Of a DNA stretch of 64,000 nucleotides, positions 20,018 to 60,760 are shown piece by piece (positions within the stretch are counted from its first letter, which is position 1; the number at the start of each line of letters is the position of its first letter). Position numbers and translations under genes: made by a program. This stretch comes from an uncultured Gammaproteobacteria bacterium (GTDB lineage: Bacteria > Patescibacteriota > Patescibacteriia > UBA1558 > UBA10009): contig CAZPMS010000001.1 in NCBI GenBank assembly GCA_964588165.1, positions 27,303 to 91,302 on the forward strand, in the 5' to 3' direction. The notes beneath the pieces were generated by a model. That model ran no database searches. It was not told the origin of the DNA and was given only the letters and a program-made list of their open reading frames with translations.

Positions 20018-21394
20018 ATTACTTATTTTATTTAAATAATCTAAAACATAATTGCCAACTCGCTGGCTACACTGCCCGTCAAACTTCCAGGTTAGTTCTT
20101 TAAGGATCCTGCTCCTACCCTCCTTTTCCTGCCTTGGATTTTTTAAGTATGAATTAATTTGTTTGACCAACTCCTGGTTGCTTCTGGCCATCTTCATGCA
20201 ATTTGCCTTAAGTACCGGCTGGTAATGGTCATTTTTATAAATATACCTGATGCTGATTTTAGTTGAATCAGGTTTAACAACATCATAGTCAATATTTATA
20301 ACCGGCTTATCTAAAGCAGCCGCATCAACTGTCATAGTGGAAGCAAAGTTGATGGTAACTGATGAATAGTAAATTGAATCAGCCAAGTGCTGCATGTCGG
20401 CTGTTAAAAACTCCCAGTCGTTACGGTAATTGTCTAAAGGAAACTGTTTGCCCGGCACATCATAAATAATATTTTGGTTTGATTTGAATTCACCCAGCTC
20501 TTTATTATAACTTGGCGCCAGCCTAACCAGCAGTTTTATTTTTTCATCAATCTCACCATTACTAATAGCTTGATCTAAATATTTAATAATTTCTTTAACA
20601 CTATCGCGGTAATGTCCAAAAAAAGGCGCAAATAAAATTAATTTATATTCTGGGCTAACGCCGATTTTTTTATAAAAATCTTCTTTGGCAGAAGGCTTAT
20701 AGCCAACATAATAATCAAAAATAGGCACGCCCGATGTGTAAATATCTTTTTCTTTCATATCAGCATACTTTATAGCTTCCTCCTTCATTAAATCAGTATG
20801 AACAATAATTTTATCTGGCCTAACCCTTACTACGCCTTTAGAGGTTAAATTATCCCAGCCTCTAACCATGGCAATTTTAGGCACCTTTTTCTTTTTAGCT
20901 TGTTTTAAAAACAAAGCGTCGGCCGGCGCTAAAACATCTGTTACAAAAACTAGGTCCGGCTTATACTTATCAAAATAGTTGCCAAATATTTTTTCCGGTA
21001 CTACCACAAAATCCAGCCAACGTACGAAATTTCTAAGCATCCGACTGCCCGAAAAAACTTTAGACAAAATTCTGCCCAGAGCATATCTTAATTTATTTTT
21101 ATCGGATGAATATTCAATTAACTGCAAACTTTTTTTAGACTGGGTATTTAAAAAACTTTTAGCCAAAAAATCAAAAAAGAATTCTACTTTACCTTTTTTA
21201 TGTTTCCATTCTACAGGCTCAAAAATGACATTCTTAAAGTGTCCATATTTTTCTTTAAAGAATTTTTCCTTGAGCGGTGGAACAAAACAAATAATCTTGA
21301 TATTTGGATTATCAAGAATTGGTTTAAGCATGTCTGTTATAAAAAGATTTCTGGTGCACATGCCATGGAACACGGGAATGAATAATGTTTTCAT
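19997..21394 (-). CDS. Uncharacterised GT-B-like protein, paralog 2 of 3
   Basis: 465 aa; same conserved blocks as paralog 1. Confidence 0.5.
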   Translation of the reverse strand: MKTLFIPVFHGMCTRNLFITDMLKPILDNPNIKIICFVPPLKEKFFKEKYGHFKNVIFEPVEWKHKKGKVEFFFDFLAKSFLNTQSKKSLQLIEYSSDKNKLRYALGRILSKVFSGSRMLRNFVRWLDFVVVPEKIFGNYFDKYKPDLVFVTDVLAPADALFLKQAKKKKVPKIAMVRGWDNLTSKGVVRVRPDKIIVHTDLMKEEAIKYADMKEKDIYTSGVPIFDYYVGYKPSAKEDFYKKIGVSPEYKLILFAPFFGHYRDSVKEIIKYLDQAISNGEIDEKIKLLVRLAPSYNKELGEFKSNQNIIYDVPGKQFPLDNYRNDWEFLTADMQHLADSIYYSSVTINFASTMTVDAAALDKPVINIDYDVVKPDSTKISIRYIYKNDHYQPVLKANCMKMARSNQELVKQINSYLKNPRQEKEGRSRILKELTWKFDGQCSQRVGNYVLDYLNKISNNADSAN

Positions 21395-21409: not shown

Positions 21410-21466
21410 AACGCGCCACAACTTCGCTGTACGAACGCGCCACGGCGCGTTCCTACGTGGCGCGTT
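21410..21466. repeat. REP-like palindromic element, family A (GTACGAACGCGCC / GGCGCGTTCCTAC)
   Basis: aacgcgccac..tgtacgaacgcgccacggcgcgttcctacgtggcgcgtt, nested inverted repeats. The same core flanks and interrupts the RAYT gene at 47.9-48.4 kb. Confidence 0.65.
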
Positions 21467-21468
21467 AA

Positions 21469-23361
21469 TTATATTTTAATTTTCTCAGCAATAGATCCTC
21501 CGTCAAGTTTAAAATGTTTTAATACCTCAATATGCCCGCCACTTTCCGGGAATCTATCCAAACCAAACCTGATCAATTTTTTATTCAAACCTGATTGATT
21601 AATAATATTTAAAATCTCATCACCTTGTCCGCCTGCCAACATATGGTCATCAATATGAACTAACTGTTTTACATCCTTGATTTCATTAATCAGCCACTCA
21701 CTATCTATATTATTTAACCACGGGATATTGATAACTTTAACTTGCTTACCATCTTTTTCAAGTATGTCGGCTGCTTCCATTGCCATAGAGAGCATAATTG
21801 GTCCATAGGCCATAATGGCTATATCTTTACCATCTTTTAATGCAAAACCTTTGCCTGGCTCAATTTTATAACCTTCAGGCAGTTTTATTTCCCTAAAGCC
21901 TGGACAAATTGCCAGCCGTAAATAACTTGGAGTTTTAACCTCATTAGCCAGATATTTAATGGCCAGTTTTGACTCTTCATAATTACAGGGTTCAAAAATT
22001 TTCATTTCATGAATAGTCCTCATTAAACCAATATCCCTAACTGCCTGATGTGATTTACCAGGAATGGCTGGAATTAAACCGGCTAAATGCCCAACATAAA
22101 TAACCTGGCTATATTCTGTTGAGTTATTAAAAATTTGTTCATTGGCTCTGGCTGCCAAAAAGGCAGCAAAGGTATTTACTACCGGCAAATATCCTTGACG
22201 AGCAAGGCCACCGGCAATACCCACCATATCTTGTTCAGCAATGCCAACTTCCAAAAAATTATCAGGATAGTTCTCTTCAATTACTTTTATGCCGCAATCA
22301 ACGGCTAAATCACCATCTATAGCAATTATTTTTTTATTTTCTTTAACCAATTCAACCAAACCTTCGGAGTAGCCGCTTTTAACATCTGTATCGCACATTT
22401 TAATTTGAGCTCGCTCAAACTCCTTAGGAATTTCCGGAAACTCAATTTGATTATTACCTAAAAGATCTTTAATTCTATCATCAACTTCGCAAATTGCAGC
22501 TTCGTATTCTTCTTGGTTAGGGACTTTATTGTGCCATAAATACAAGCCGTCCTTTTTTAAAGCCTCTGGATGTTCCATAAAGGAAATTCCTTTGCCTTTT
22601 ATGGTATCTAAAATCACGGCCTTAGGCTTGCCATTAGAATAATCAATTTTCTCAAATATCTTAATTAAATCACCCATGTCATTGCCTTTTACCTCAATTA
22701 CTTCCCAGCCAAAAGCTTTTATTTTTTCTTCCAGCGGCGGCATATCTAAAATATCAGTTGTCAGCAAATCGGACTGGACTTTATTTTTATCCACCAAAAC
22801 TACTAAATTATCTAATTTCCAAGCAGGTGCTGATTGGAAACCTTCCCAGTTTTGCCCTTCTTCCAGTTCCCCATCCCCTACCATGACAAAAACTTTATTG
22901 GGTTTGTTTTCTTTTTTAAAAGCCAAGGCATGTCCTTTACCTTTGGAAATGCCCATTGCCAAAGCACCGGTATTGGCCTCAACTCCCGGAGTGGCTATAT
23001 CTACATGACCGGCCGGCCCGCCAAGTTGTCTGAATTTAAATAAATCATCATATGGCACTAAACCAACTGAGGCTAAGATTGAGTTCATCATTGGCCCGGC
23101 ATGCCCTTTGGATAGAATGAAGATATCACGTTCAGGATCATCTTTATCATTTGGATTAATCTTCATTTCCTTGTGATAAAGTAAAGTCATCACATCCGCA
23201 GCAGAAAGTGATGTACCCAGATGCCCTGTTCCTGGAACCATGACCACGCCTAAAATATTATGGCGTACCATTTCAGCCATAATTTGTAGTTTTTGTTCTT
23301 CTGACAAGTCAAAACTTTTAACTTTGTCAAAATCTTGTTTGGTGAAGAATATATTGTTCAT
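21469..23361 (-). CDS. Transketolase, N-terminal (TPP) and C-terminal (Pyr) halves fused in one 630-aa protein
   Basis: GHLGTSLSAADVMT, GDGELEEGQNWEG (TPP-binding), then EVGIAEQDMVGIAGGLA pyrimidine domain. Confidence 0.85.
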   Translation of the reverse strand: MNNIFFTKQDFDKVKSFDLSEEQKLQIMAEMVRHNILGVVMVPGTGHLGTSLSAADVMTLLYHKEMKINPNDKDDPERDIFILSKGHAGPMMNSILASVGLVPYDDLFKFRQLGGPAGHVDIATPGVEANTGALAMGISKGKGHALAFKKENKPNKVFVMVGDGELEEGQNWEGFQSAPAWKLDNLVVLVDKNKVQSDLLTTDILDMPPLEEKIKAFGWEVIEVKGNDMGDLIKIFEKIDYSNGKPKAVILDTIKGKGISFMEHPEALKKDGLYLWHNKVPNQEEYEAAICEVDDRIKDLLGNNQIEFPEIPKEFERAQIKMCDTDVKSGYSEGLVELVKENKKIIAIDGDLAVDCGIKVIEENYPDNFLEVGIAEQDMVGIAGGLARQGYLPVVNTFAAFLAARANEQIFNNSTEYSQVIYVGHLAGLIPAIPGKSHQAVRDIGLMRTIHEMKIFEPCNYEESKLAIKYLANEVKTPSYLRLAICPGFREIKLPEGYKIEPGKGFALKDGKDIAIMAYGPIMLSMAMEAADILEKDGKQVKVINIPWLNNIDSEWLINEIKDVKQLVHIDDHMLAGGQGDEILNIINQSGLNKKLIRFGLDRFPESGGHIEVLKHFKLDGGSIAEKIKI

Positions 23362-46992: not shown

Positions 46993-47021
46993 TTGACAAT
47001 ACTCTAAATTATTTATAAAAT
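46993..47021 (+). promoter_or_regulatory. sigma70 promoter TTGACA-17-TAAAAT
   Basis: TTGACA at 46993-46998, TAAAAT at 47016-47021; AAGGAGGT RBS at 47049-47056. Confidence 0.55.
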
Positions 47022-47060
47022 CAATTATTGAAATGTACCTTTTAAACAAAGGAGGTAAGC

Positions 47061-47267
47061 ATGATACGCTGTCAAACATGCGGTTTTGTTTTTCCTTCTT
47101 TATCTCCAGATAAAAAAGGAATAATTACTGTTGAAAAGCATAATGATTCTACAAGCCCTGAAGCTGTTTGTCCTGGCGGGACCTGGAAACCAAATAGTAA
47201 TGGCCGAAAGGGAGAGAAAAATAAACTCCGTTGGCAACCGGCAAAAAAACTAAAAGCTGCCAGCTAA
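47061..47267 (+). CDS. Small hypothetical protein (68 aa) with N-terminal CxxC, higher GC
   Basis: MIRCQTCGFVFP...; excellent RBS; followed by a weak hairpin plus T6 at ~47268-47296. Confidence 0.45.
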   Translation: MIRCQTCGFVFPSLSPDKKGIITVEKHNDSTSPEAVCPGGTWKPNSNGRKGEKNKLRWQPAKKLKAAS

Positions 47268-47377
47268 AACGTTCTTGCAAAAAGGACGTTTTTTATATAC
47301 TCTTGACAATATCATGCTAAATGGTTACAAAGAAAGTAGTTGAACCTTTGCTAGAATCTCAACTGGAGGATAGGAAG

Positions 47378-47593
47378 ATGGCACTAAATCAACAAAAGGC
47401 TCAAGAACTTCAAGAAGTTATCAAGATAGTGGGATACAGGATCGAGCAAGAATTTTTTGCTGTTAGCCAACTGCACAACTCAGTGCAAGCGCAAATCCGC
47501 AAGCATGTTACTCGGTTCGAAATCCTGACTGCCAACGGCCTTGCAGGTGTGTTGAAAATTCTGGAAACTAAACTGGCTGAACAACTTGCATAA
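47378..47593 (+). CDS. Small hypothetical helical protein (71 aa from the RBS-supported ATG)
   Basis: GGAGGA, 7 nt, ATG at 47378; ~42% GC. Confidence 0.45.
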   Translation: MALNQQKAQELQEVIKIVGYRIEQEFFAVSQLHNSVQAQIRKHVTRFEILTANGLAGVLKILETKLAEQLA

Positions 47594-47631
47594 ATTATCT
47601 TGCAAATTTCTACCAGAAACCTAATTTTCCT

Positions 47632-47666
47632 CCCGACAAACACAACTTTGTCGGGATTTTATTTTA
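47632..47666. terminator. Rho-independent terminator (cccgacaaa-cacaac-tttgtcggg, then ATTTTATTTTA), bidirectional position
   Basis: 9-bp perfect stem; sits between a + sORF and the - RAYT stop. Confidence 0.6.
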
Positions 47667-48224
47667 TTAATAATTTTTATCGGTTTCCCATTTAATAGGA
47701 TTATTTATAATATACTTTTGAATTTCTGATAATGATTTTTCATTTCTAATTATATGGTCGTAATATCTGGCTTGCCAAAAGAAATATTCAAAACCTTTTT
47801 TATTGCATTCCTTCTTAACCGCGCCTTTATAATGATTGATTATTGATGGCAATGAATTATTTATTAATGAACCAAATCTATTTTCATGAATTGTACGAAC
47901 GCGCCGCGCCTCCTCTGTACGAACGCGCCGTGGCGCGTTCCTACGGCGTGGCGCATTTTTATTATCAATTATTACAATTCCGTGAATATGATTTGGCATA
48001 ATTATGAATCTATCCAACCTAACATTCGGATATCTTTTAGAAATTCTTTTCCAATTTCTTTTGGCAATTTTACCTATTGCTGATAATCTCATTCTACCTT
48101 CTATAACCTCGCCAAAATAATGGCTCCCATCCTTTATACAAATTGTAATAAAATAATAGCCATCGCTGGAATAATCATATCCAGGCAGCCTAAATTGCTT
48201 TTTTATTTTAAATTGAAAAACCAC
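47667..48224 (-). CDS. REP-associated tyrosine transposase (RAYT, IS200/IS605 Y1 HUH family, COG1943) carrying an in-frame REP insertion
   Basis: RLPGYDYSSDGYYFITICIKDG, HUH motif PNHIHGIV, C-terminal FFWQARYYDHIIRNE...YIINNPIKW. A 22-aa segment NAPRRRNAPRRVRTEEARRVRT is encoded by a REP doublet. Confidence 0.75.
   Translation of the reverse strand: MVFQFKIKKQFRLPGYDYSSDGYYFITICIKDGSHYFGEVIEGRMRLSAIGKIAKRNWKRISKRYPNVRLDRFIIMPNHIHGIVIIDNKNAPRRRNAPRRVRTEEARRVRTIHENRFGSLINNSLPSIINHYKGAVKKECNKKGFEYFFWQARYYDHIIRNEKSLSEIQKYIINNPIKWETDKNY
47891..47956. repeat. 66-bp family-A REP doublet lying inside, and in frame with, the RAYT ORF
   Basis: ttgtacgaacgcgccgcgcctcctctgtacgaacgcgccgtggcgcgttcctacggcgtggcgcat; 66 nt = 22 codons. 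Confidence 0.6.
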
Positions 48225-48262
48225 TCAAATCACTTTCCTACCCTGATAGCTTTTTTAATTAA

Positions 48263-48383
48263 TTGTACGAACGCGCCTTTATAATGATTTATTATTTGTA
48301 ATGATGAATTTTAATAATGGACGCATTTATTTATATCAATTGTACGAACGCGCCGCGGCACGTTCGTACGTTTATGGCGCGTT
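48263..48383. repeat. Family-A REP elements upstream of the RAYT plus a degenerate copy of the RAYT internal segment between them
   Basis: ttgtacgaacgcgcc at 48263-48277; AT-rich ~60 nt resembling RAYT nt 47824-47890; tgtacgaacgcgccgcggcacgttcgtacg (9-bp perfect palindrome) at 48341-48370; overlaps the kinase gene's stop. Confidence 0.6.
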
Positions 48384-48882
48384 ATTTTAAATAAAGCCAA
48401 GTTTCTAATTTTTTAGTAGTTTCCTCAACTGATAATCCTTCCGTTTCTATAACAATTCCTTCATCAAATTTATTTACTTTATTAAAAACAGCCTCCGCTG
48501 CATCTTTACCATATGAGTTTTCTCTTTGGCTATCTCTTTTTATACAAACGTCCAATGGAGCTTTAAGAGTAAAAATATATCGGTTACCGCCTAAATTTTC
48601 TTTAAAGTTTTCAATCTGCTGGCGGTGATAAAAACAACCGTCAATTATTATACTCTTGCCTTGCTCTAATAAACTTTTCATTTTAGGCAATACCAGTTCA
48701 TTGGCTTTAATATAATTTTCTATTGGAACGTAGCCATCTTCAGGGCCATGGTCTAAATCATTCTCGTGCATAATTTCATCAATAGAAAAATATTCAGCCG
48801 ATAATCTTTCAGCCAACTTTTTAGCAATGGTTGTTTTGCCAACCCCCAGCGCCCCTCTGATTATACAATAAACTGAATTCAT
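48382..48882 (-). CDS. Small P-loop kinase/ATPase (AAA_33-like nucleotide or small-molecule kinase)
   Basis: CIIRGALGVGKTTIAKKL Walker A; 166 aa; not a canonical CysC (no LDGDNVR). Confidence 0.6.
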   Translation of the reverse strand: MNSVYCIIRGALGVGKTTIAKKLAERLSAEYFSIDEIMHENDLDHGPEDGYVPIENYIKANELVLPKMKSLLEQGKSIIIDGCFYHRQQIENFKENLGGNRYIFTLKAPLDVCIKRDSQRENSYGKDAAEAVFNKVNKFDEGIVIETEGLSVEETTKKLETWLYLK

Positions 48883-48892
48883 ATTATTTTAA

Positions 48893-50302
48893 TTAAATAT
48901 TAATGACTTCGCCATCCATCTCATCCGGAATATCTACTTCCAGCATTGATAAAATGGTTGGGGCTAGATTTAGTATGGAAGTATCTATGTTTTGGGGTTT
49001 AATACCCTTAAAATAAGCCAAAAATAGCCCTTCTGGCTCGTTTTCCCCACTCCAGTGCTGTGGAGCGTCAAAAACCTGTTTTTGGCCAATTGAGCCACTA
49101 AAATGGGTATTTTTACCTTGGTCTACGATAAGATCAGGGGCTGAATCAAAATGCTGGCCTGAATAGATTTCTTCCTTAGTATAAACCTTATTTACAATCT
49201 TTATTCCATCGTGCTCCAACTGCTCCAATTCATCAATAAGCTTCTTTTTAAACTCAGCTGATTTGTTTAATAAATAGATTGGACCTTGCCCAGAAGCAAT
49301 AGCTTGTGATTTATCCCAATCAATAATTTCTGCTTTACCGCCAAATTGCACGCTTCCTTGTTCATCTGGTAATTTCTGTTGAACTGACCTTGGAACGATC
49401 TTTTTAATAAAATCTTTTAGACCCAACTTAGTTAATATTTTAGTCACCCTTTGACGGGTAAAGCCGACTTTTTGGAAATTGGAAATTGTTGATTGGGACT
49501 TTAACTTAAGGTAGCCTTTTTGTTCCAACCAAGTTGAAATATTAAACTTAACTTTAATCTCGTTAGTACCATGATCAGACATAAATAAAAAAGTGTAATC
49601 TGTAAATTGATCAACCAACTTGCCTACTCCTTCATCAATAATCTGCCAGGCTTTAAATACTTTATCATCACCCCAGTGGTAATGCTGCAAAACATTGATT
49701 AGATAAGTGGCCACCATAAAAAAATCAAAGTCGCCTTCATTAAGTAAAAATTCTGCCGCTTCAAAACGGATTTTAATCAACCGATAAATTTCTTCAATCA
49801 CTTCATCAGCATCCTTTTCCATGTAGCTGATGTTTTGTGGCAGCACGCGCCAGTTAAATTTTGTTTTTAACATTTTTTCTAAAGCTTCCGGATAAGTAAA
49901 ATTTGATTCCATAGCATCTGGGCCGCCGGCCACCATTAAGCCGTTTATTTTATGAGGTGGATATAAAGTTGGCATATTAATTACTCCCACCCGTTTGCCG
50001 GCATCTGATAAATAATCAAAAATTTCTTTGCCAGAAAATGACTCAGCAGATGGAATGTAGATTTTTCTGTTTTTAACATCAACATTTTCCCACCAAAAAA
50101 CTCCCAGCTTGGCCGGGTTTAAGCCGGTAGAAAAACATTTCCAGTTGGGTGAAGTAACCGGCGGCAGCTGGGATTTCAAAACACCCCAGGCTCCGGCCTG
50201 TTGCAGTTTTTTAAAGGTTGGCAATTTTCCCTCATCTATCCAAGGCTGGATATAATTCCAGCTACCACCATCTATTCCGATAACTATTATTTTTTTATTC
50301 AT
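48893..50302 (-). CDS. Alkaline-phosphatase-superfamily protein, type I phosphodiesterase/nucleotide pyrophosphatase (NPP)-like
   Basis: GIDGGSW and PPVTSPNWKCFSTG (Thr nucleophile region). Start set at M19 (MNKKIIVIGIDGG). Confidence 0.7.
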   Translation of the reverse strand: MNKKIIVIGIDGGSWNYIQPWIDEGKLPTFKKLQQAGAWGVLKSQLPPVTSPNWKCFSTGLNPAKLGVFWWENVDVKNRKIYIPSAESFSGKEIFDYLSDAGKRVGVINMPTLYPPHKINGLMVAGGPDAMESNFTYPEALEKMLKTKFNWRVLPQNISYMEKDADEVIEEIYRLIKIRFEAAEFLLNEGDFDFFMVATYLINVLQHYHWGDDKVFKAWQIIDEGVGKLVDQFTDYTFLFMSDHGTNEIKVKFNISTWLEQKGYLKLKSQSTISNFQKVGFTRQRVTKILTKLGLKDFIKKIVPRSVQQKLPDEQGSVQFGGKAEIIDWDKSQAIASGQGPIYLLNKSAEFKKKLIDELEQLEHDGIKIVNKVYTKEEIYSGQHFDSAPDLIVDQGKNTHFSGSIGQKQVFDAPQHWSGENEPEGLFLAYFKGIKPQNIDTSILNLAPTILSMLEVDIPDEMDGEVINI

Positions 50303-59674: not shown

Positions 59675-60760
59675 ATGGAAAAAATCATTTATTTAGTAAC
59701 TAAATCTGAATGGGGCGGCGCCCAGGAATATATTTATAACCTGGCAACATCACTGCCTAAAGATAAATTTGATGTTTTAGTTTTGGCCGGTGAAGGCAAT
59801 GGTAAACTATTCAAAGAATTGGCCAAACAAAACATAAAATATCGTAAACTCAAATACACTAAACGATCTATAAACATTTTTTATGACAAACTGGCTCTTT
59901 TGGAATTGATAAAAATATTTAAACATGAAAAGCCGAACATCATCCATCTAAATAGTTCCAAAATAGGTTTTTTAGGCAGCCTAGCCACAAAATTTCTACC
60001 CACTACAAATTACCCACTACAAACTATTTACACCGCCCACGGCTGGGTTTTTAATGAACCGCTCCCCTTCTTATCTAAAAAGCTTTATTATTTTATTGAA
60101 AAATTATCAGCCAAATGGAAAGATACAATTATTACCGTTTCTAAAAATGATGAACAGATAGCAAATAAGTTTAAATTTAAGTCAAAAATAATTACTATTC
60201 CCAACGCTGTTGATCCTGATAATCTCGATTTTTTGAATAAAGACGAGGCAATAAAAAAAATCAGTAAGAACGCGCCCTGGCGCCTTCCTTCCAAGCTAAT
60301 AGGAACTATTGCAAATCTCTATCCCACTAAAGGACTTAACTATTTAATTGATACGGCAAAACTTTTACCTCAATATAAATTCATAATAATCGGTGAAGGA
60401 CCAGCTAGAAAAAATTTAGAAAATCAAATTAAGCATTTGACTTTAAAAAATATAATATTGAAGGGCAGTATTCCACAGGCTCACAAATATTTAAAAGCTT
60501 TTAGCTGTTTTATTTTGCCTTCGGTTAAAGAGGGCATGCCTTATGTAATTCTAAAGGCTATTGCTTCTGATGTGCCGATTGTTACCACTTGCGTTGGCGG
60601 CCTACCGGAAGTTGTAGACAACAATTTTTTGGTTAAACCAGCCGACCCTAAAGCTTTAGCTGATAAGATTAATGAGGTTATTAAAAATCCTGATTTAAAA
60701 CAACAACACACTCCTCCCAGTTTTCATGAGTTTTTAAAGAAAACAATTGAATTATATTAA
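59675..60760 (+). CDS. GT4 family glycosyltransferase
   Basis: 361 aa; KEGMPYVILKAIASDVPIV. Confidence 0.8.
   Translation: MEKIIYLVTKSEWGGAQEYIYNLATSLPKDKFDVLVLAGEGNGKLFKELAKQNIKYRKLKYTKRSINIFYDKLALLELIKIFKHEKPNIIHLNSSKIGFLGSLATKFLPTTNYPLQTIYTAHGWVFNEPLPFLSKKLYYFIEKLSAKWKDTIITVSKNDEQIANKFKFKSKIITIPNAVDPDNLDFLNKDEAIKKISKNAPWRLPSKLIGTIANLYPTKGLNYLIDTAKLLPQYKFIIIGEGPARKNLENQIKHLTLKNIILKGSIPQAHKYLKAFSCFILPSVKEGMPYVILKAIASDVPIVTTCVGGLPEVVDNNFLVKPADPKALADKINEVIKNPDLKQQHTPPSFHEFLKKTIELY

What the first reader, a model, noticed from the sequence alone, without database searches (positions are those of the whole stretch)
47667..48392. RAYT transposase whose own ORF carries an in-frame REP doublet, with a degenerate duplicate of the same gene segment upstream
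The IS200-like RAYT is intact (GYDYS..YF.T.C, HUH PNHIHGIV, C-terminal FWQ.R.YDH.IR.E motif). Between the HUH motif and the conserved S.S.I..YKG block sits a 66-bp GC-rich REP doublet (2x GTACGAACGCGCC plus GGCGCGTTCCTAC). It encodes exactly 22 aa (NAPRRRNAPRRVRTEEARRVRT), so the frame is preserved. About 450 bp upstream a REP half-site, a ~60-nt AT-rich stretch ~70% identical to RAYT nt 47824-47890, and a full REP recur. This suggests REP mobilisation or recombination into the transposase gene itself, and possibly an insertion-tolerant or regulated RAYT.
Basis: partly seen in the sequence, partly recalled or inferred. Interest (0 to 1): 0.75.

Follow-up and report, generated by a model that had tools for sequence, protein, structure and literature searches.

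The report
RAYT transposase gene carrying its own REP
An intact REP-associated tyrosine transposase gene carries a copy of the genome's REP hairpin in-frame in a floppy surface loop; this is real, but it is a published hallmark of this transposase subfamily, so it is a new example and not a new phenomenon.

Summary
The minus-strand ORF 47667-48224 (185 aa) is an intact Y1/HUH RAYT. Its codons 90-111 (47892-47957, 66 nt) are a GC-rich composite REP. A degenerate pseudogene piece of the same gene (aa 98-149, two stops) lies just upstream (48215-48382), bounded by REP arms.

It is not a one-off insertion. The gene has the diagnostic motifs of TnpA(REP) subclass 2.4, which equals Bertels' RAYT group 4 (NHIH, WQ, YIINNP). 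Quentin et al. [quoted passage not shown]

I reproduced this on 105 homologous genes. 92 carry a perfect palindrome of at least 8 bp in that linker. The GTAG foot is conserved, the inner stem covaries, and the palindrome is read in two frames.

Relatives only 50-64% identical, two of them syntenic, carry the same 28-nt palindrome at the same place. It is 89-96% identical at nucleotide level, while neighbouring third codon positions are 40-58% identical.

AlphaFold gives pLDDT below 50 for aa 95-115. The best PDB fold match is E. coli TnpAREP bound to a REP hairpin (4ER8).

Verdict: a new member of a known kind. What keeps the internal REP perfect is still unknown.

The parts
47667..48224 (-). 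Intact RAYT / TnpA(REP) gene, 185 aa, subclass 2.4 (RAYT group 4)
   Evidence: ORF. NCBIfam REP_Tyr_transpos 62 bits, E = 4.5e-17. Pfam Y1_Tnp 23.2 bits. 3753 homologues. AF2 model matched by Foldseek best to 4er8_A, E = 2.8e-7. The identical protein is found on 13 metagenome contigs.
47982..47993 (-). HuH motif codons (N78-H79-I80-H81)
   Evidence: P77, N78, H79 and H81 are invariant in alignment A1. Matches the subclass 2.4 key motif NH[IFV]H.
47892..47957 (-). In-frame composite REP (66 nt, aa 90-111, NAPRRRNAPRRVRTEEARRVRT). It comprises an outer arm, the core palindrome and an extra arm.
   Evidence: Folds as a two-tier hairpin: ssDNA -23.5 kcal/mol (z = -3.7), RNA -39.8 kcal/mol (z = -5.2). 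AF2 pLDDT is below 50 for aa 95-103 and 105-115.
47917..47944 (-). Core 28-nt REP palindrome. Coding strand: GTAGGAACGCGCC-AC-GGCGCGTTCGTAC. One GTAG foot and one GTAC foot.
   Evidence: Inverted repeat I10. The same palindrome occurs in the ORFs of L090, L093, L094 and L103 at 89-96% nt identity.
47893..47905 (-). Extra REP arm 24 nt (8 codons) from the core arm. This is the lineage-specific addition that makes the 'doublet'.
   Evidence: Direct repeat D2, spacing 24 nt. Absent from the closest relative P0002/L090 in alignment A1.
47772..47777 (-). W150-Q151 codons (GTAG-recognition region WQARYYDHIIR)
   Evidence: Aligns to W94-Q95...E100-H101...R104 of 4ER8. These residues are named as GTAG-recognition residues in PMC6006769.
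47697..47714 (-). Catalytic tyrosine motif Y171-I-I-N-N-P
   Evidence: Y171, I172 and N175 are invariant. Aligns to Y115/N119 of 4ER8. Matches the subclass 2.4 Y motif YIxNNP.
48215..48382 (-). Degenerate pseudogene fragment of RAYT (aa 98-149, two stop codons) directly upstream of the intact gene
   Evidence: tblastn: 47% identity over 57 aa, E = 6e-5. Spacer 73% identical, 0 of 3000 controls reach the score.
48342..48369 (.). Extragenic full REP (GTACGAACGCGCC-GC-GGCACGTTCGTAC), 118 nt upstream of the RAYT start. An outer arm GGCGCGTT at 48376-48383 overlaps the stop codon of the upstream kinase-like gene.
48265..48277 (.). Isolated REP arm inside the relic. It replaces the codons that follow YKGA.
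21410..21466 (.). Extragenic composite REP between two minus-strand genes, with the same two-tier architecture as the in-gene copy
   Evidence: ssDNA fold -22 kcal/mol, z = -4.4.
60264..60291 (.). Degenerate REP-like palindrome lying in-frame in a glycosyltransferase ORF (encodes KNAPWRLPS)

Best explanation
This is a domesticated, single-copy RAYT of TnpA(REP) subclass 2.4 (RAYT group 4), probably in a Patescibacteria (Komeilibacteria-like) genome.

As in most members of that subclass, a copy of the genome's own GTAG-footed 'double-foot' REP hairpin lies in-frame in the segment that encodes the linker between the HuH strand (beta3) and helix alphaC. That linker is a disordered, peripheral loop, so the enzyme tolerates the 22 extra, arginine-rich residues.

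The embedded REP is old. It is shared with relatives whose synonymous sites are saturated. It is nevertheless kept as a near-perfect palindrome. Extra arms and decayed arms around it (here a 24-nt arm duplication) point to continuous local birth and death of copies. I infer that this happens by hairpin-promoted slippage or recombination, or by the RAYT acting in cis on the REP nearest to where it is made. I also infer that the copy evolves in concert with the genome's REP family.

The upstream relic (aa 98-149, bounded by REP arms) is a by-product of such REP-mediated rearrangement. The copying direction was gene to upstream, because the copied segment encodes the family-conserved SLxSIINHYKG block.

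Shown here: identity, anatomy, family-wide occurrence, nucleotide-level conservation, loop location. Inferred: the process that generates and maintains the copies.
For: Membership. [quoted passage not shown] Fold. Best PDB match is 4er8_A. The insert lies in the region with pLDDT below 50.

Family-wide occurrence. 92 of 105 homologous ORFs have a perfect stem of at least 8 bp in the linker, and 66 of 105 have at least 12 bp. In the first 44 ORFs the median longest stem was 13 bp, against 6 bp in an N-terminal control segment.

Selection at nucleotide level.
- The foot GTAG(A/G)(G/A)AC is conserved while the inner 6 nt covary.
- The same palindrome is read as VETLHATSL or as RDVACNVST.
- The GTAG foot falls in two frames (16 and 8 genes) and never in the frame that gives a TAG stop.

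Age. The palindrome is 89-96% identical across WIN, L090, L093, L094 and L103. Flanking coding DNA is 54-75% identical and third positions 40-58%. Synteny with L089-L092 (Phosphodiest - RAYT - Polysacc_deac) is shown.

Turnover. L103 has a new palindrome in another frame next to a relic arm. The window has a 24-nt arm repeat. Many homologues have extra half-sites.

Cognate REPs. The same arm recurs outside the ORF 34 times in 10 of 31 loci, against 2.75 for shuffled arms. Same-type external palindromes occur in 27 of 83 loci. The window holds extragenic copies at 21410-21466 and 48342-48383.
Against: - No experiment or transcript data are available. Nothing here shows that this RAYT binds or cuts its internal REP.
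- One foot of the window's core palindrome, and most arms in this genome, read GTAC and not the canonical GT[AG]G.
- The NCBIfam equivalog score (62.3) is below its cut-off of 80.
- In 35 of 83 loci, and in the 11-kb Komeilibacteria locus, no external perfect palindrome was found at all. In a further 21 loci only different-type palindromes were found. Concerted evolution with a genomic REP pool is therefore unproven there, and whole genomes could not be scanned.
- Perfect conservation could instead reflect direct functional selection (rival 1).
Confidence: 0.8

Rival explanations
1. The internal REP is a functional cis element kept by purifying selection. One possibility is that it is a self-recognition or autoregulatory site, either as a stable mRNA hairpin that throttles translation or as an ssDNA hairpin bound by the RAYT. 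Another is that it is a protected 'master copy' that guarantees co-inheritance of the REP with its transposase.
For: - A perfect palindrome is present in 92 of 105 genes, always in the same linker.
- It is 89-96% identical at nucleotide level where third codon positions are 40-58% identical.
- It is present and perfect in loci with no other copy within 10 kb.
- The structure is very stable: RNA -39.8 kcal/mol, z = -5.2.
- Established knowledge: IS200 tnpA is held down by mRNA stem-loops (cited in PMC3733652).
Against: - 13 of 105 members lack a perfect stem of 8 bp or more, so the palindrome is not indispensable.
- Copy number, exact position in the loop, reading frame and stem sequence all vary. 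This fits turnover better than a fixed regulatory site.
- There is no T-run after the hairpin on the sense strand.
- HUH enzymes bind ssDNA, and no RNA binding is known for them.
- No expression data are available.
Confidence: 0.3
2. A recent, one-off transposition or recombination of a REP into this particular gene.
For: - REPs identical to the insert exist elsewhere in the window.
- The extra arm (24-nt repeat) is specific to this lineage.
- Another ORF carries a REP-like sequence in-frame.
Against: - The same palindrome sits at the same site in relatives 50-64% identical, two of them syntenic.
- The trait is family-wide and already published.
Confidence: 0.05
3. The encoded peptide is the selected feature, for example an arginine-rich DNA-binding loop, and the palindrome is incidental.
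For: The window peptide is strongly basic (NAPRRRNAPRRVRTEEARRVRT). The loop lies in a DNA-binding enzyme.
Against: - The same DNA palindrome is translated in two frames into unrelated peptides: VETLHATSL and RDVACNVST, or RNAPRRVPT and VGTRHGAFL.
- Other clades encode non-basic peptides such as VGNKNFCSL.
- The published model places the loop away from the DNA-binding and catalytic sites.
- AF2 confidence for this segment is low.
Confidence: 0.04
4. The gene is a decaying, non-functional RAYT, and the REP cluster marks its disruption.
For: - A RAYT pseudogene fragment lies directly upstream.
- HMM scores are weak.
- No REP lies downstream of the gene.
Against: - The ORF is full length.
- All 21 invariant family positions are present, including H79, H81, W150, Q151, Y171 and N175.
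- The core fold is confidently predicted: 107 residues have pLDDT of 90 or more.
- The protein is identical on 13 contigs from several samples.
Confidence: 0.08

Closest known systems
TnpA(REP) subclass 2.4 of Quentin, Siguier, Chandler & Fichant 2018 (BMC Genomics 19:475, PMC6006769), equal to RAYT group 4 of Bertels et al. 2017 (PMC5581495)
   Same: - Key motifs NH[IFV]H, WQ and YIxNNP.
- Length about 190 aa.
- Hypervariable insertion between beta3 and alphaC.
- Long 'double-foot' GT[AG]G...C[TC]AC REPs.
[quoted passage not shown]
- Patchy distribution over many phyla.
   Different: - The host appears to be a Patescibacteria/CPR genome. The paper names Cyanobacteria, Bacteroidetes and 'various phyla'.
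- Most feet in this genome read GTAC.
- A REP lies only upstream of the gene, not on both sides.
- A REP-bounded pseudogene fragment lies upstream.
- In what I read of the paper, the insertions are treated as tolerated. It does not report the nucleotide-level conservation across deep lineages seen here.
E. coli TnpAREP / RAYT (PDB 4ER8; subclass 2.2, group 2)
   Same: - Y1 HUH fold: best Foldseek hit, E = 2.8e-7.
- Catalytic Tyr and Asn aligned (Y171/N175 to Y115/N119).
- GTAG-recognition residues aligned: W150, Q151, H157 and R160, with D156 in place of E100.
- Association with GTAG-footed REP hairpins.
   Different: - 16% identity.
- HUH-to-WQ spacing is about 30 aa in E. coli and about 70 aa here.
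- E. coli REPs are bulged, have a single foot and are strictly extragenic, flanking the gene as a REPtron.
Intragenic REPs and Rickettsia palindromic elements (Di Nocera et al. 2013, PMC3733652)
   Same: GC-rich palindromic repeats inserted in-frame in protein-coding genes. Dimers add 20-30 aa, presumably in permissive loops.
   Different: Those are scattered insertions in unrelated genes at non-conserved sites. Here the host gene is the cognate transposase itself, and the site is conserved across a whole subfamily.
IS200 tnpA control by mRNA stem-loops
   Same: A Y1 transposase gene associated with a strong hairpin in its own transcript, which offers a possible route to low expression.
   Different: The IS200 hairpins lie in the 5' UTR and RBS region, not in the coding sequence. 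No evidence here shows that the internal REP regulates anything.

Membership tests
Y1 HUH transposase superfamily (PF01797 / COG1943) | HuH motif on a beta strand | tested here: met
   N78-H79-I80-H81. P77, N78, H79 and H81 are invariant in A1. Strand E79-86 in the AF2 model.
Y1 HUH transposase superfamily (PF01797 / COG1943) | Single catalytic Tyr on a C-terminal helix, followed by a polar residue four positions later | tested here: met
   Y171 and N175 align with Y115 and N119 of 4ER8. Both are invariant in A1.
Y1 HUH transposase superfamily (PF01797 / COG1943) | Fold similarity to solved Y1 transposases | tested here: met
   Foldseek against PDB: 4er8_A E = 2.8e-7, then ISDra2, IS608 and IS200 TnpA.
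Y1 HUH transposase superfamily (PF01797 / COG1943) | Profile score above the curated threshold | tested here: inconclusive
   Pfam Y1_Tnp scores 23.2 bits against a cut-off of 23, with only the C-terminal half aligned. NCBIfam REP_Tyr_transpos scores 62.3 bits against a cut-off of 80. The insertion splits the domain.
RAYT / TnpA(REP) | GTAG-recognition residues (W94, Q95, E100, H101, R104 in E. coli) | tested here: met
   W150, Q151, D156, H157 and R160 in WQARYYDHIIR. The E-to-D change is also reported for subclasses 2.5 and 2.7.
RAYT / TnpA(REP) | Cognate GT[AG]G-footed REP hairpins close to the gene (within 1 kb) and repeated in the genome | tested here: met
   REP at 48342-48369, 118 nt upstream. 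Further copies at 21410-21466 and a degenerate one at 60264-60291. 9 matches against 0.15 expected. Caveat: only the upstream side has a REP, and many feet read GTAC.
RAYT / TnpA(REP) | Single copy, vertically inherited (domesticated) rather than multicopy like an IS | tested here: inconclusive
   One intact copy plus one relic in 64 kb. Synteny is conserved with a Komeilibacteria relative at 64% identity. The whole genome is not available.
RAYT / TnpA(REP) | Binds and cleaves single-stranded REP DNA | not testable with these tools
   Needs purified protein and oligonucleotide cleavage assays.
TnpA(REP) subclass 2.4 / RAYT group 4 | Key motifs NH[IFV]H, WQ, YIxNNP | tested here: met
   NHIH, FWQ and YIINNP, checked against Table 1 of PMC6006769.
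TnpA(REP) subclass 2.4 / RAYT group 4 | Insertion of variable length and sequence between beta3 and alphaC | tested here: met
   Gap-rich block in A1 columns 101-170. Low-pLDDT segment aa 95-115, between E79-86 and H125-142.
TnpA(REP) subclass 2.4 / RAYT group 4 | [quoted passage not shown] | tested here: met
   47892-47957 equals aa 90-111. The same holds in 92 of 105 homologues.
TnpA(REP) subclass 2.4 / RAYT group 4 | Long 'double-foot' REP (5' GT[AG]G ... C[TC]AC 3') | tested here: inconclusive
   The window core is GTAGGAACGCGCC-AC-GGCGCGTTCGTAC, with one canonical foot and one GTAC foot. Relatives L090 and L094 have a true double foot.
TnpA(REP) subclass 2.4 / RAYT group 4 | Placement inside the subclass clade in a phylogeny with the published reference sequences | not tested
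   The reference set of the paper was not available. Homologues annotated 'REP element-mobilizing transposase RayT' from Cyanobacteria, Bacteroidota and Patescibacteria are the nearest hits.

The most novel reading that the evidence does not exclude
The embedded REP is not merely tolerated. It would be a selected, functional part of group-4 RAYT genes: a nucleotide-level element conserved far beyond the surrounding codons. It could act as the transposase's own recognition or autoregulatory site, or as a protected master copy from which the genome's REP family is seeded and kept matched to its enzyme.
Probability: 0.3. Interest if true: 0.6.

Novelty: new member of a known kind. Interest (0 to 1): 0.3.

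Why it matters
The finding mainly confirms a published peculiarity of one RAYT subfamily and extends it to a small, AT-rich Patescibacteria-like genome.

Its residual value lies in the data collected around it. The internal palindrome is almost universal in the subfamily (92 of 105 genes). Its stem covaries while the GTAG foot stays fixed. It is kept near-perfect across lineages whose synonymous sites are saturated.

Together these make an open question testable: do domesticated RAYTs and their REPs co-evolve through a copy held inside the gene itself? It is also a practical warning for annotation. The insertion splits the Y1_Tnp domain and pushes profile scores to or below their thresholds. 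REPs next to the gene also break metagenome assemblies.

Tried and rejected
- Direct phmmer against PDB sequences gave only a weak C-terminal match to 4ER8 (E = 0.03). It was useful for residue mapping, not for showing the gap. The fold search was needed.
- Rfam scan of 47000-49000: only sub-threshold chance hits (ceN53, sroE and others, all far below gathering scores). No known RNA family.
- I first took the Y of 'NHYKG' as the catalytic Tyr. I rejected this after aligning to 4ER8 and reading Table 1 of PMC6006769. The catalytic Tyr is Y171 in YIINNP.
- I tested whether the REP-like sequence in the glycosyltransferase ORF (60264-60291) is a clean insertion. Alignment to paralogues shows no length gain, so it cannot be called an insertion.
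- I looked for a second REP downstream of the RAYT. There is none, only an ordinary terminator hairpin at 47631-47656.
- I looked for other RAYT fragments in the window. Only the upstream relic was found. The weak tblastn hits at 21410-21466 are just the REP translated.
- The hypothesis that the encoded peptide is the selected feature was rejected, because the same palindrome is read in two frames.
Full report
**1. What is in the sequence**

The minus strand of 47667-48224 holds a 185-aa ORF with a GTG start. Its N-terminus aligns with the start of its homologues.

Amino acids 90-111 (NAPRRRNAPRRVRTEEARRVRT) correspond exactly to 47892-47957, which is 66 nt.

On the coding strand this stretch reads: AATGCGCC-AC-gcc-[GTAGGAACGCGCC-AC-GGCGCGTTCGTAC]-agaggaggcgc-GGCGCGTTCGTAC.

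It therefore consists of an outer arm, a 28-nt core palindrome, and an additional arm placed 24 nt (8 codons) after the core's matching arm (direct repeat D2).

The 13-mer core, allowing up to 2 mismatches, occurs 9 times in the 64-kb window against 0.15 expected. None of 100 shuffles reached 9. All 11 occurrences of AACGCGCC/GGCGCGTT lie in four places:
- 21410-21466
- the gene itself
- 48265-48383
- a degenerate copy at 60264-60291

The window is 34% G+C, so the element stands out sharply.

As single-stranded DNA or RNA, the in-gene element and the extragenic element at 21410-21466 fold into the same two-tier hairpin. An outer AACGCGCC/GGCGCGTT helix and an asymmetric internal loop of 6-9 unpaired nt (6 in the gene copy, 9 in the extragenic copy) enclose the inner REP stem. 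The energies are:
- in-gene, ssDNA: -23.5 kcal/mol, z = -3.7
- extragenic, ssDNA: -22 kcal/mol, z = -4.4
- in-gene, RNA: -39.8 kcal/mol, z = -5.2

The gene therefore holds a complete unit of the genome's REP, not a fragment.

**2. The upstream duplicate**

The AT-rich spacer 48278-48341 is 73% identical (49 of 67 aligned columns) to 47826-47892. None of 3000 random windows from the same 64 kb, and none of 3000 shuffles, reached that score.

tblastn of the RAYT against the window extends the relic to 48382..48215 on the minus strand. It matches aa 98-149 at 47% identity over 57 aa (E = 6e-5), with two stop codons.

The copied segment encodes the family-conserved block SLxSIINHYKG. The gene is therefore the source and the upstream piece is a decayed pseudogene fragment.

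The relic is bounded and interrupted by REP arms: a full REP at 48342-48369, a lone arm at 48265-48277 directly after the YKGA codons, and an outer arm at 48376-48383. The outer arm overlaps the stop codon of the upstream kinase-like gene.

The relic, the kinase-like gene and the upstream REP are all absent from the syntenic Komeilibacteria locus. This rearrangement is therefore specific to the window's lineage.

**3. What the gene is**

The profile matches are:
- NCBIfam REP_Tyr_transpos: E = 4.5e-17, but 62 bits against a cut-off of 80.
- Pfam Y1_Tnp: 23.2 bits against a cut-off of 23, with only the C-terminal half aligned. The insertion splits the domain.

An AlphaFold2 model built on 29 sequences has mean pLDDT 82, and 107 residues have pLDDT of 90 or more. 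The only low-confidence internal stretch is aa 95-115, between the HuH strand (E79-86) and the next long helix (H125-142).

Foldseek against the PDB returns E. coli TnpAREP bound to a REP hairpin (4er8_A, E = 2.8e-7) as the best hit. The ISDra2, IS608 and IS200 transposases follow.

The phmmer alignment to 4ER8 maps these residues:

| Window protein | 4ER8 |
|---|---|
| W150 / Q151 | W94 / Q95 |
| D156 / H157 | E100 / H101 |
| R160 | R104 |
| Y171 | Y115 |
| N175 | N119 |

All 21 invariant columns of the family alignment are intact in the window protein. The identical protein occurs on 13 contigs from several samples. It is neither an assembly artefact nor an obviously decaying gene.

**4. It is a family trait, not a local accident**

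In the alignment of 28 homologues (45-67% identity), the region after the HuH motif is a length-variable block. It is full of recurring peptides such as RNAPRRVPT, RNAPWHVPT, TRHGASLQ and RDVACNVST. These are translated palindromes.

I fetched 80 genomic and 80 metagenomic loci encoding relatives from many phyla and parsed 105 ORFs. Perfect stems in the HuH-to-WQ segment were distributed as follows:

| Perfect stem length | ORFs (of 105) |
|---|---|
| at least 8 bp | 92 |
| at least 10 bp | 83 |
| at least 12 bp | 66 |

The typical form is a 28-nt perfect palindrome, GTAG(A/G)(G/A)AC-N6-N6'-GT(C/T)(C/T)CTAC.

In the first 44 parsed genes, the median longest stem was 13 bp in this segment and 6 bp in an N-terminal control segment.

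Several observations place the constraint on the DNA or RNA, not on the protein:
- The foot is conserved, while the inner six bases change in a compensatory way: CGCGCC, CGTTGC, CAACGC, CGCAAA, CAGGGC, CGGGGC, AACAAA and others.
- The same palindrome is read as VETLHATSL in some genes and as RDVACNVST in others.
- The GTAG foot is found in two reading frames (16 and 8 genes). It is never found in the third frame, which would create a TAG stop.

**5. It is old**

Ca. Komeilibacteria relatives (P0122; L089-L092; 64% identity) have the RAYT in the same neighbourhood as the window, between a Phosphodiest-family gene and a polysaccharide deacetylase gene. They carry GTAGGAACGCGCC-GC-GGCGCGTTCCTAC at the same place in the ORF, plus an upstream half-site. 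No other copy of the 8-mer core occurs in 11 kb.

L093 (50% identity), L094 and L103 carry the same palindrome.

Across these five lineages the comparison is:

| Sequence compared | Nucleotide identity |
|---|---|
| 28-nt palindrome | 89-96% |
| 315 nt of flanking coding sequence | 54-75% |
| third codon positions of the flanks | 40-58% |

The palindrome differences are confined to the 2-nt centre and one foot base.

L103 reads the palindrome in the other frame (VGTRHGAFL). It is followed by 'CVPT', a decayed arm in the ancestral frame. That is direct evidence for turnover of copies within the loop.

Many other genes show extra or decayed half-sites:
- L001
- L002
- L008
- L013
- L026
- L053
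- L070
- the window itself

**6. Relation to extragenic REPs**

The internal arm recurs outside the ORF within 10 kb in 10 of 31 loci. That is 34 hits, against 2.75 for shuffled arms.

With a broader test, 27 of 83 loci have at least one external perfect palindrome of the same type.

In several loci the palindromes immediately flanking the gene share the GTAG foot but have a different stem (L005, L053, L111-113, L007). This suggests that the foot and the hairpin shape are what the enzymes share, not the stem sequence.

**7. Comparison with what is known**

This is published. Quentin, Siguier, Chandler and Fichant (2018, PMC6006769) define TnpA(Y1) subclass 2.4, which equals Bertels' RAYT group 4. 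Its features are:
- motifs NH[IFV]H, WQ and YIxNNP
- median length 194 aa
- an insertion of variable length and sequence between beta3 and alphaC
[quoted passage not shown] Two other papers give context:
- Di Nocera et al. (2013, PMC3733652) document in-frame intragenic GTAG REPs in many other genes, with dimers adding 20-30 aa.
- Bertels et al. (2017, PMC5581495) describe group 4 as common in Cyanobacteria, Chlorobia and Caldilineae, with modestly abundant flanking 16-mers.

The window protein meets the motif, length, insertion and intragenic-REP criteria. The deviations are:
- A GTAC foot on one side of the core and on most arms in this genome.
- A REP on the upstream side of the gene only.
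- A Patescibacteria-like host.
- The REP-bounded relic.

**8. Mechanism**

Shown here: an intact RAYT with an in-frame, complete REP unit in a disordered loop; family-wide occurrence; nucleotide-level conservation with covariation; and turnover of arms.

Inferred: the loop is a permissive landing or duplication site. Copies are generated and homogenised either by hairpin-promoted slippage and recombination, or by the RAYT acting in cis on the nearest REP. The upstream relic and the 24-nt arm repeat are by-products of that process.

The main rival is that the palindrome is itself functional, as an autoregulatory hairpin, a self-recognition site or a protected master copy. I could not separate this from concerted evolution, because whole genomes could not be scanned. 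I give it about 0.3.

Three other readings are poorly supported (see the rival explanations): a recent one-off insertion, a selected peptide, and a dead gene.

**9. Verdict**

The feature is a new member of a known kind, and interest is modest (0.3).

The point still worth pursuing is why the internal REP stays perfect over evolutionary depths at which synonymous sites are saturated.

Noticed in passing
window 60264-60291 (in ORF 59675-60760, +): A degenerate REP-like palindrome (GTAAGAACGCGCC-CT-GGCGCCTTCCTTC) lies in-frame in a GT4-type glycosyltransferase gene and encodes KNAPWRLPS. Alignment to paralogues shows no length gain at that point, so whether it was an insertion is unclear.
   Followed up: partly
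window 21410-21466: A complete extragenic composite REP lies between two tandem minus-strand genes (stop at 21469, next start at 21394). All three full REP units in the window have the same orientation on the chromosome and lie in minus-strand transcription units (n = 3, too few to test for bias).
   Followed up: partly
window 47924-47959 (+ strand): Read on the antisense (+) strand, the internal REP is followed by a T-run and scores as an intrinsic-terminator-like site. It could stop antisense transcription coming from the convergent small ORFs at 47061-47593.
   Followed up: no
window 47061-47593 and 48382-48882: Compared with the syntenic Komeilibacteria locus (Phosphodiest - RAYT - Polysacc_deac, genes abutting), the window has gained two small + strand ORFs (68 and 90 aa, no Pfam hit). 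Each is preceded by a TTGACA-like box. It has also gained a KTI12/AAA-type kinase-like gene, on either side of the RAYT.
   Followed up: no
L086, L087, L088 (metagenome contigs of about 850-870 bp): Several independent assemblies break about 120 nt upstream of the RAYT start, which is at the upstream REP. This is consistent with the REP being repeated in the genome and fragmenting assemblies.
   Followed up: no
L059 (variable region starts at ~10208) and L070 (variable region starts at ~6826): In some homologues the in-gene REP arm has expanded into in-frame tandem arrays: SHLQ x8 after VETTHALSLQ in L059, and DDGRDVAA x3 before GRDVACNVPT in L070. The RAYT loop there behaves like a microsatellite.
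   Followed up: no
L005, L053, L111-L113, L007 (9-53 nt from the RAYT ORF ends): Palindromes immediately flanking some RAYT genes share the GTAG(A/G)G foot with the internal palindrome but have a different inner stem. One gene can thus be associated with two REP variants.
   Followed up: partly
L103 (variable region at ~nt 230-310 of the ORF): The same GTAGGAACGCGCC-AT-GGCGCGTTCCTAC palindrome is read in a different frame (VGTRHGAFL) than in close relatives (RNAPRRVPT). It is followed by a decayed arm that still encodes CVPT in the ancestral frame.
   Followed up: yes
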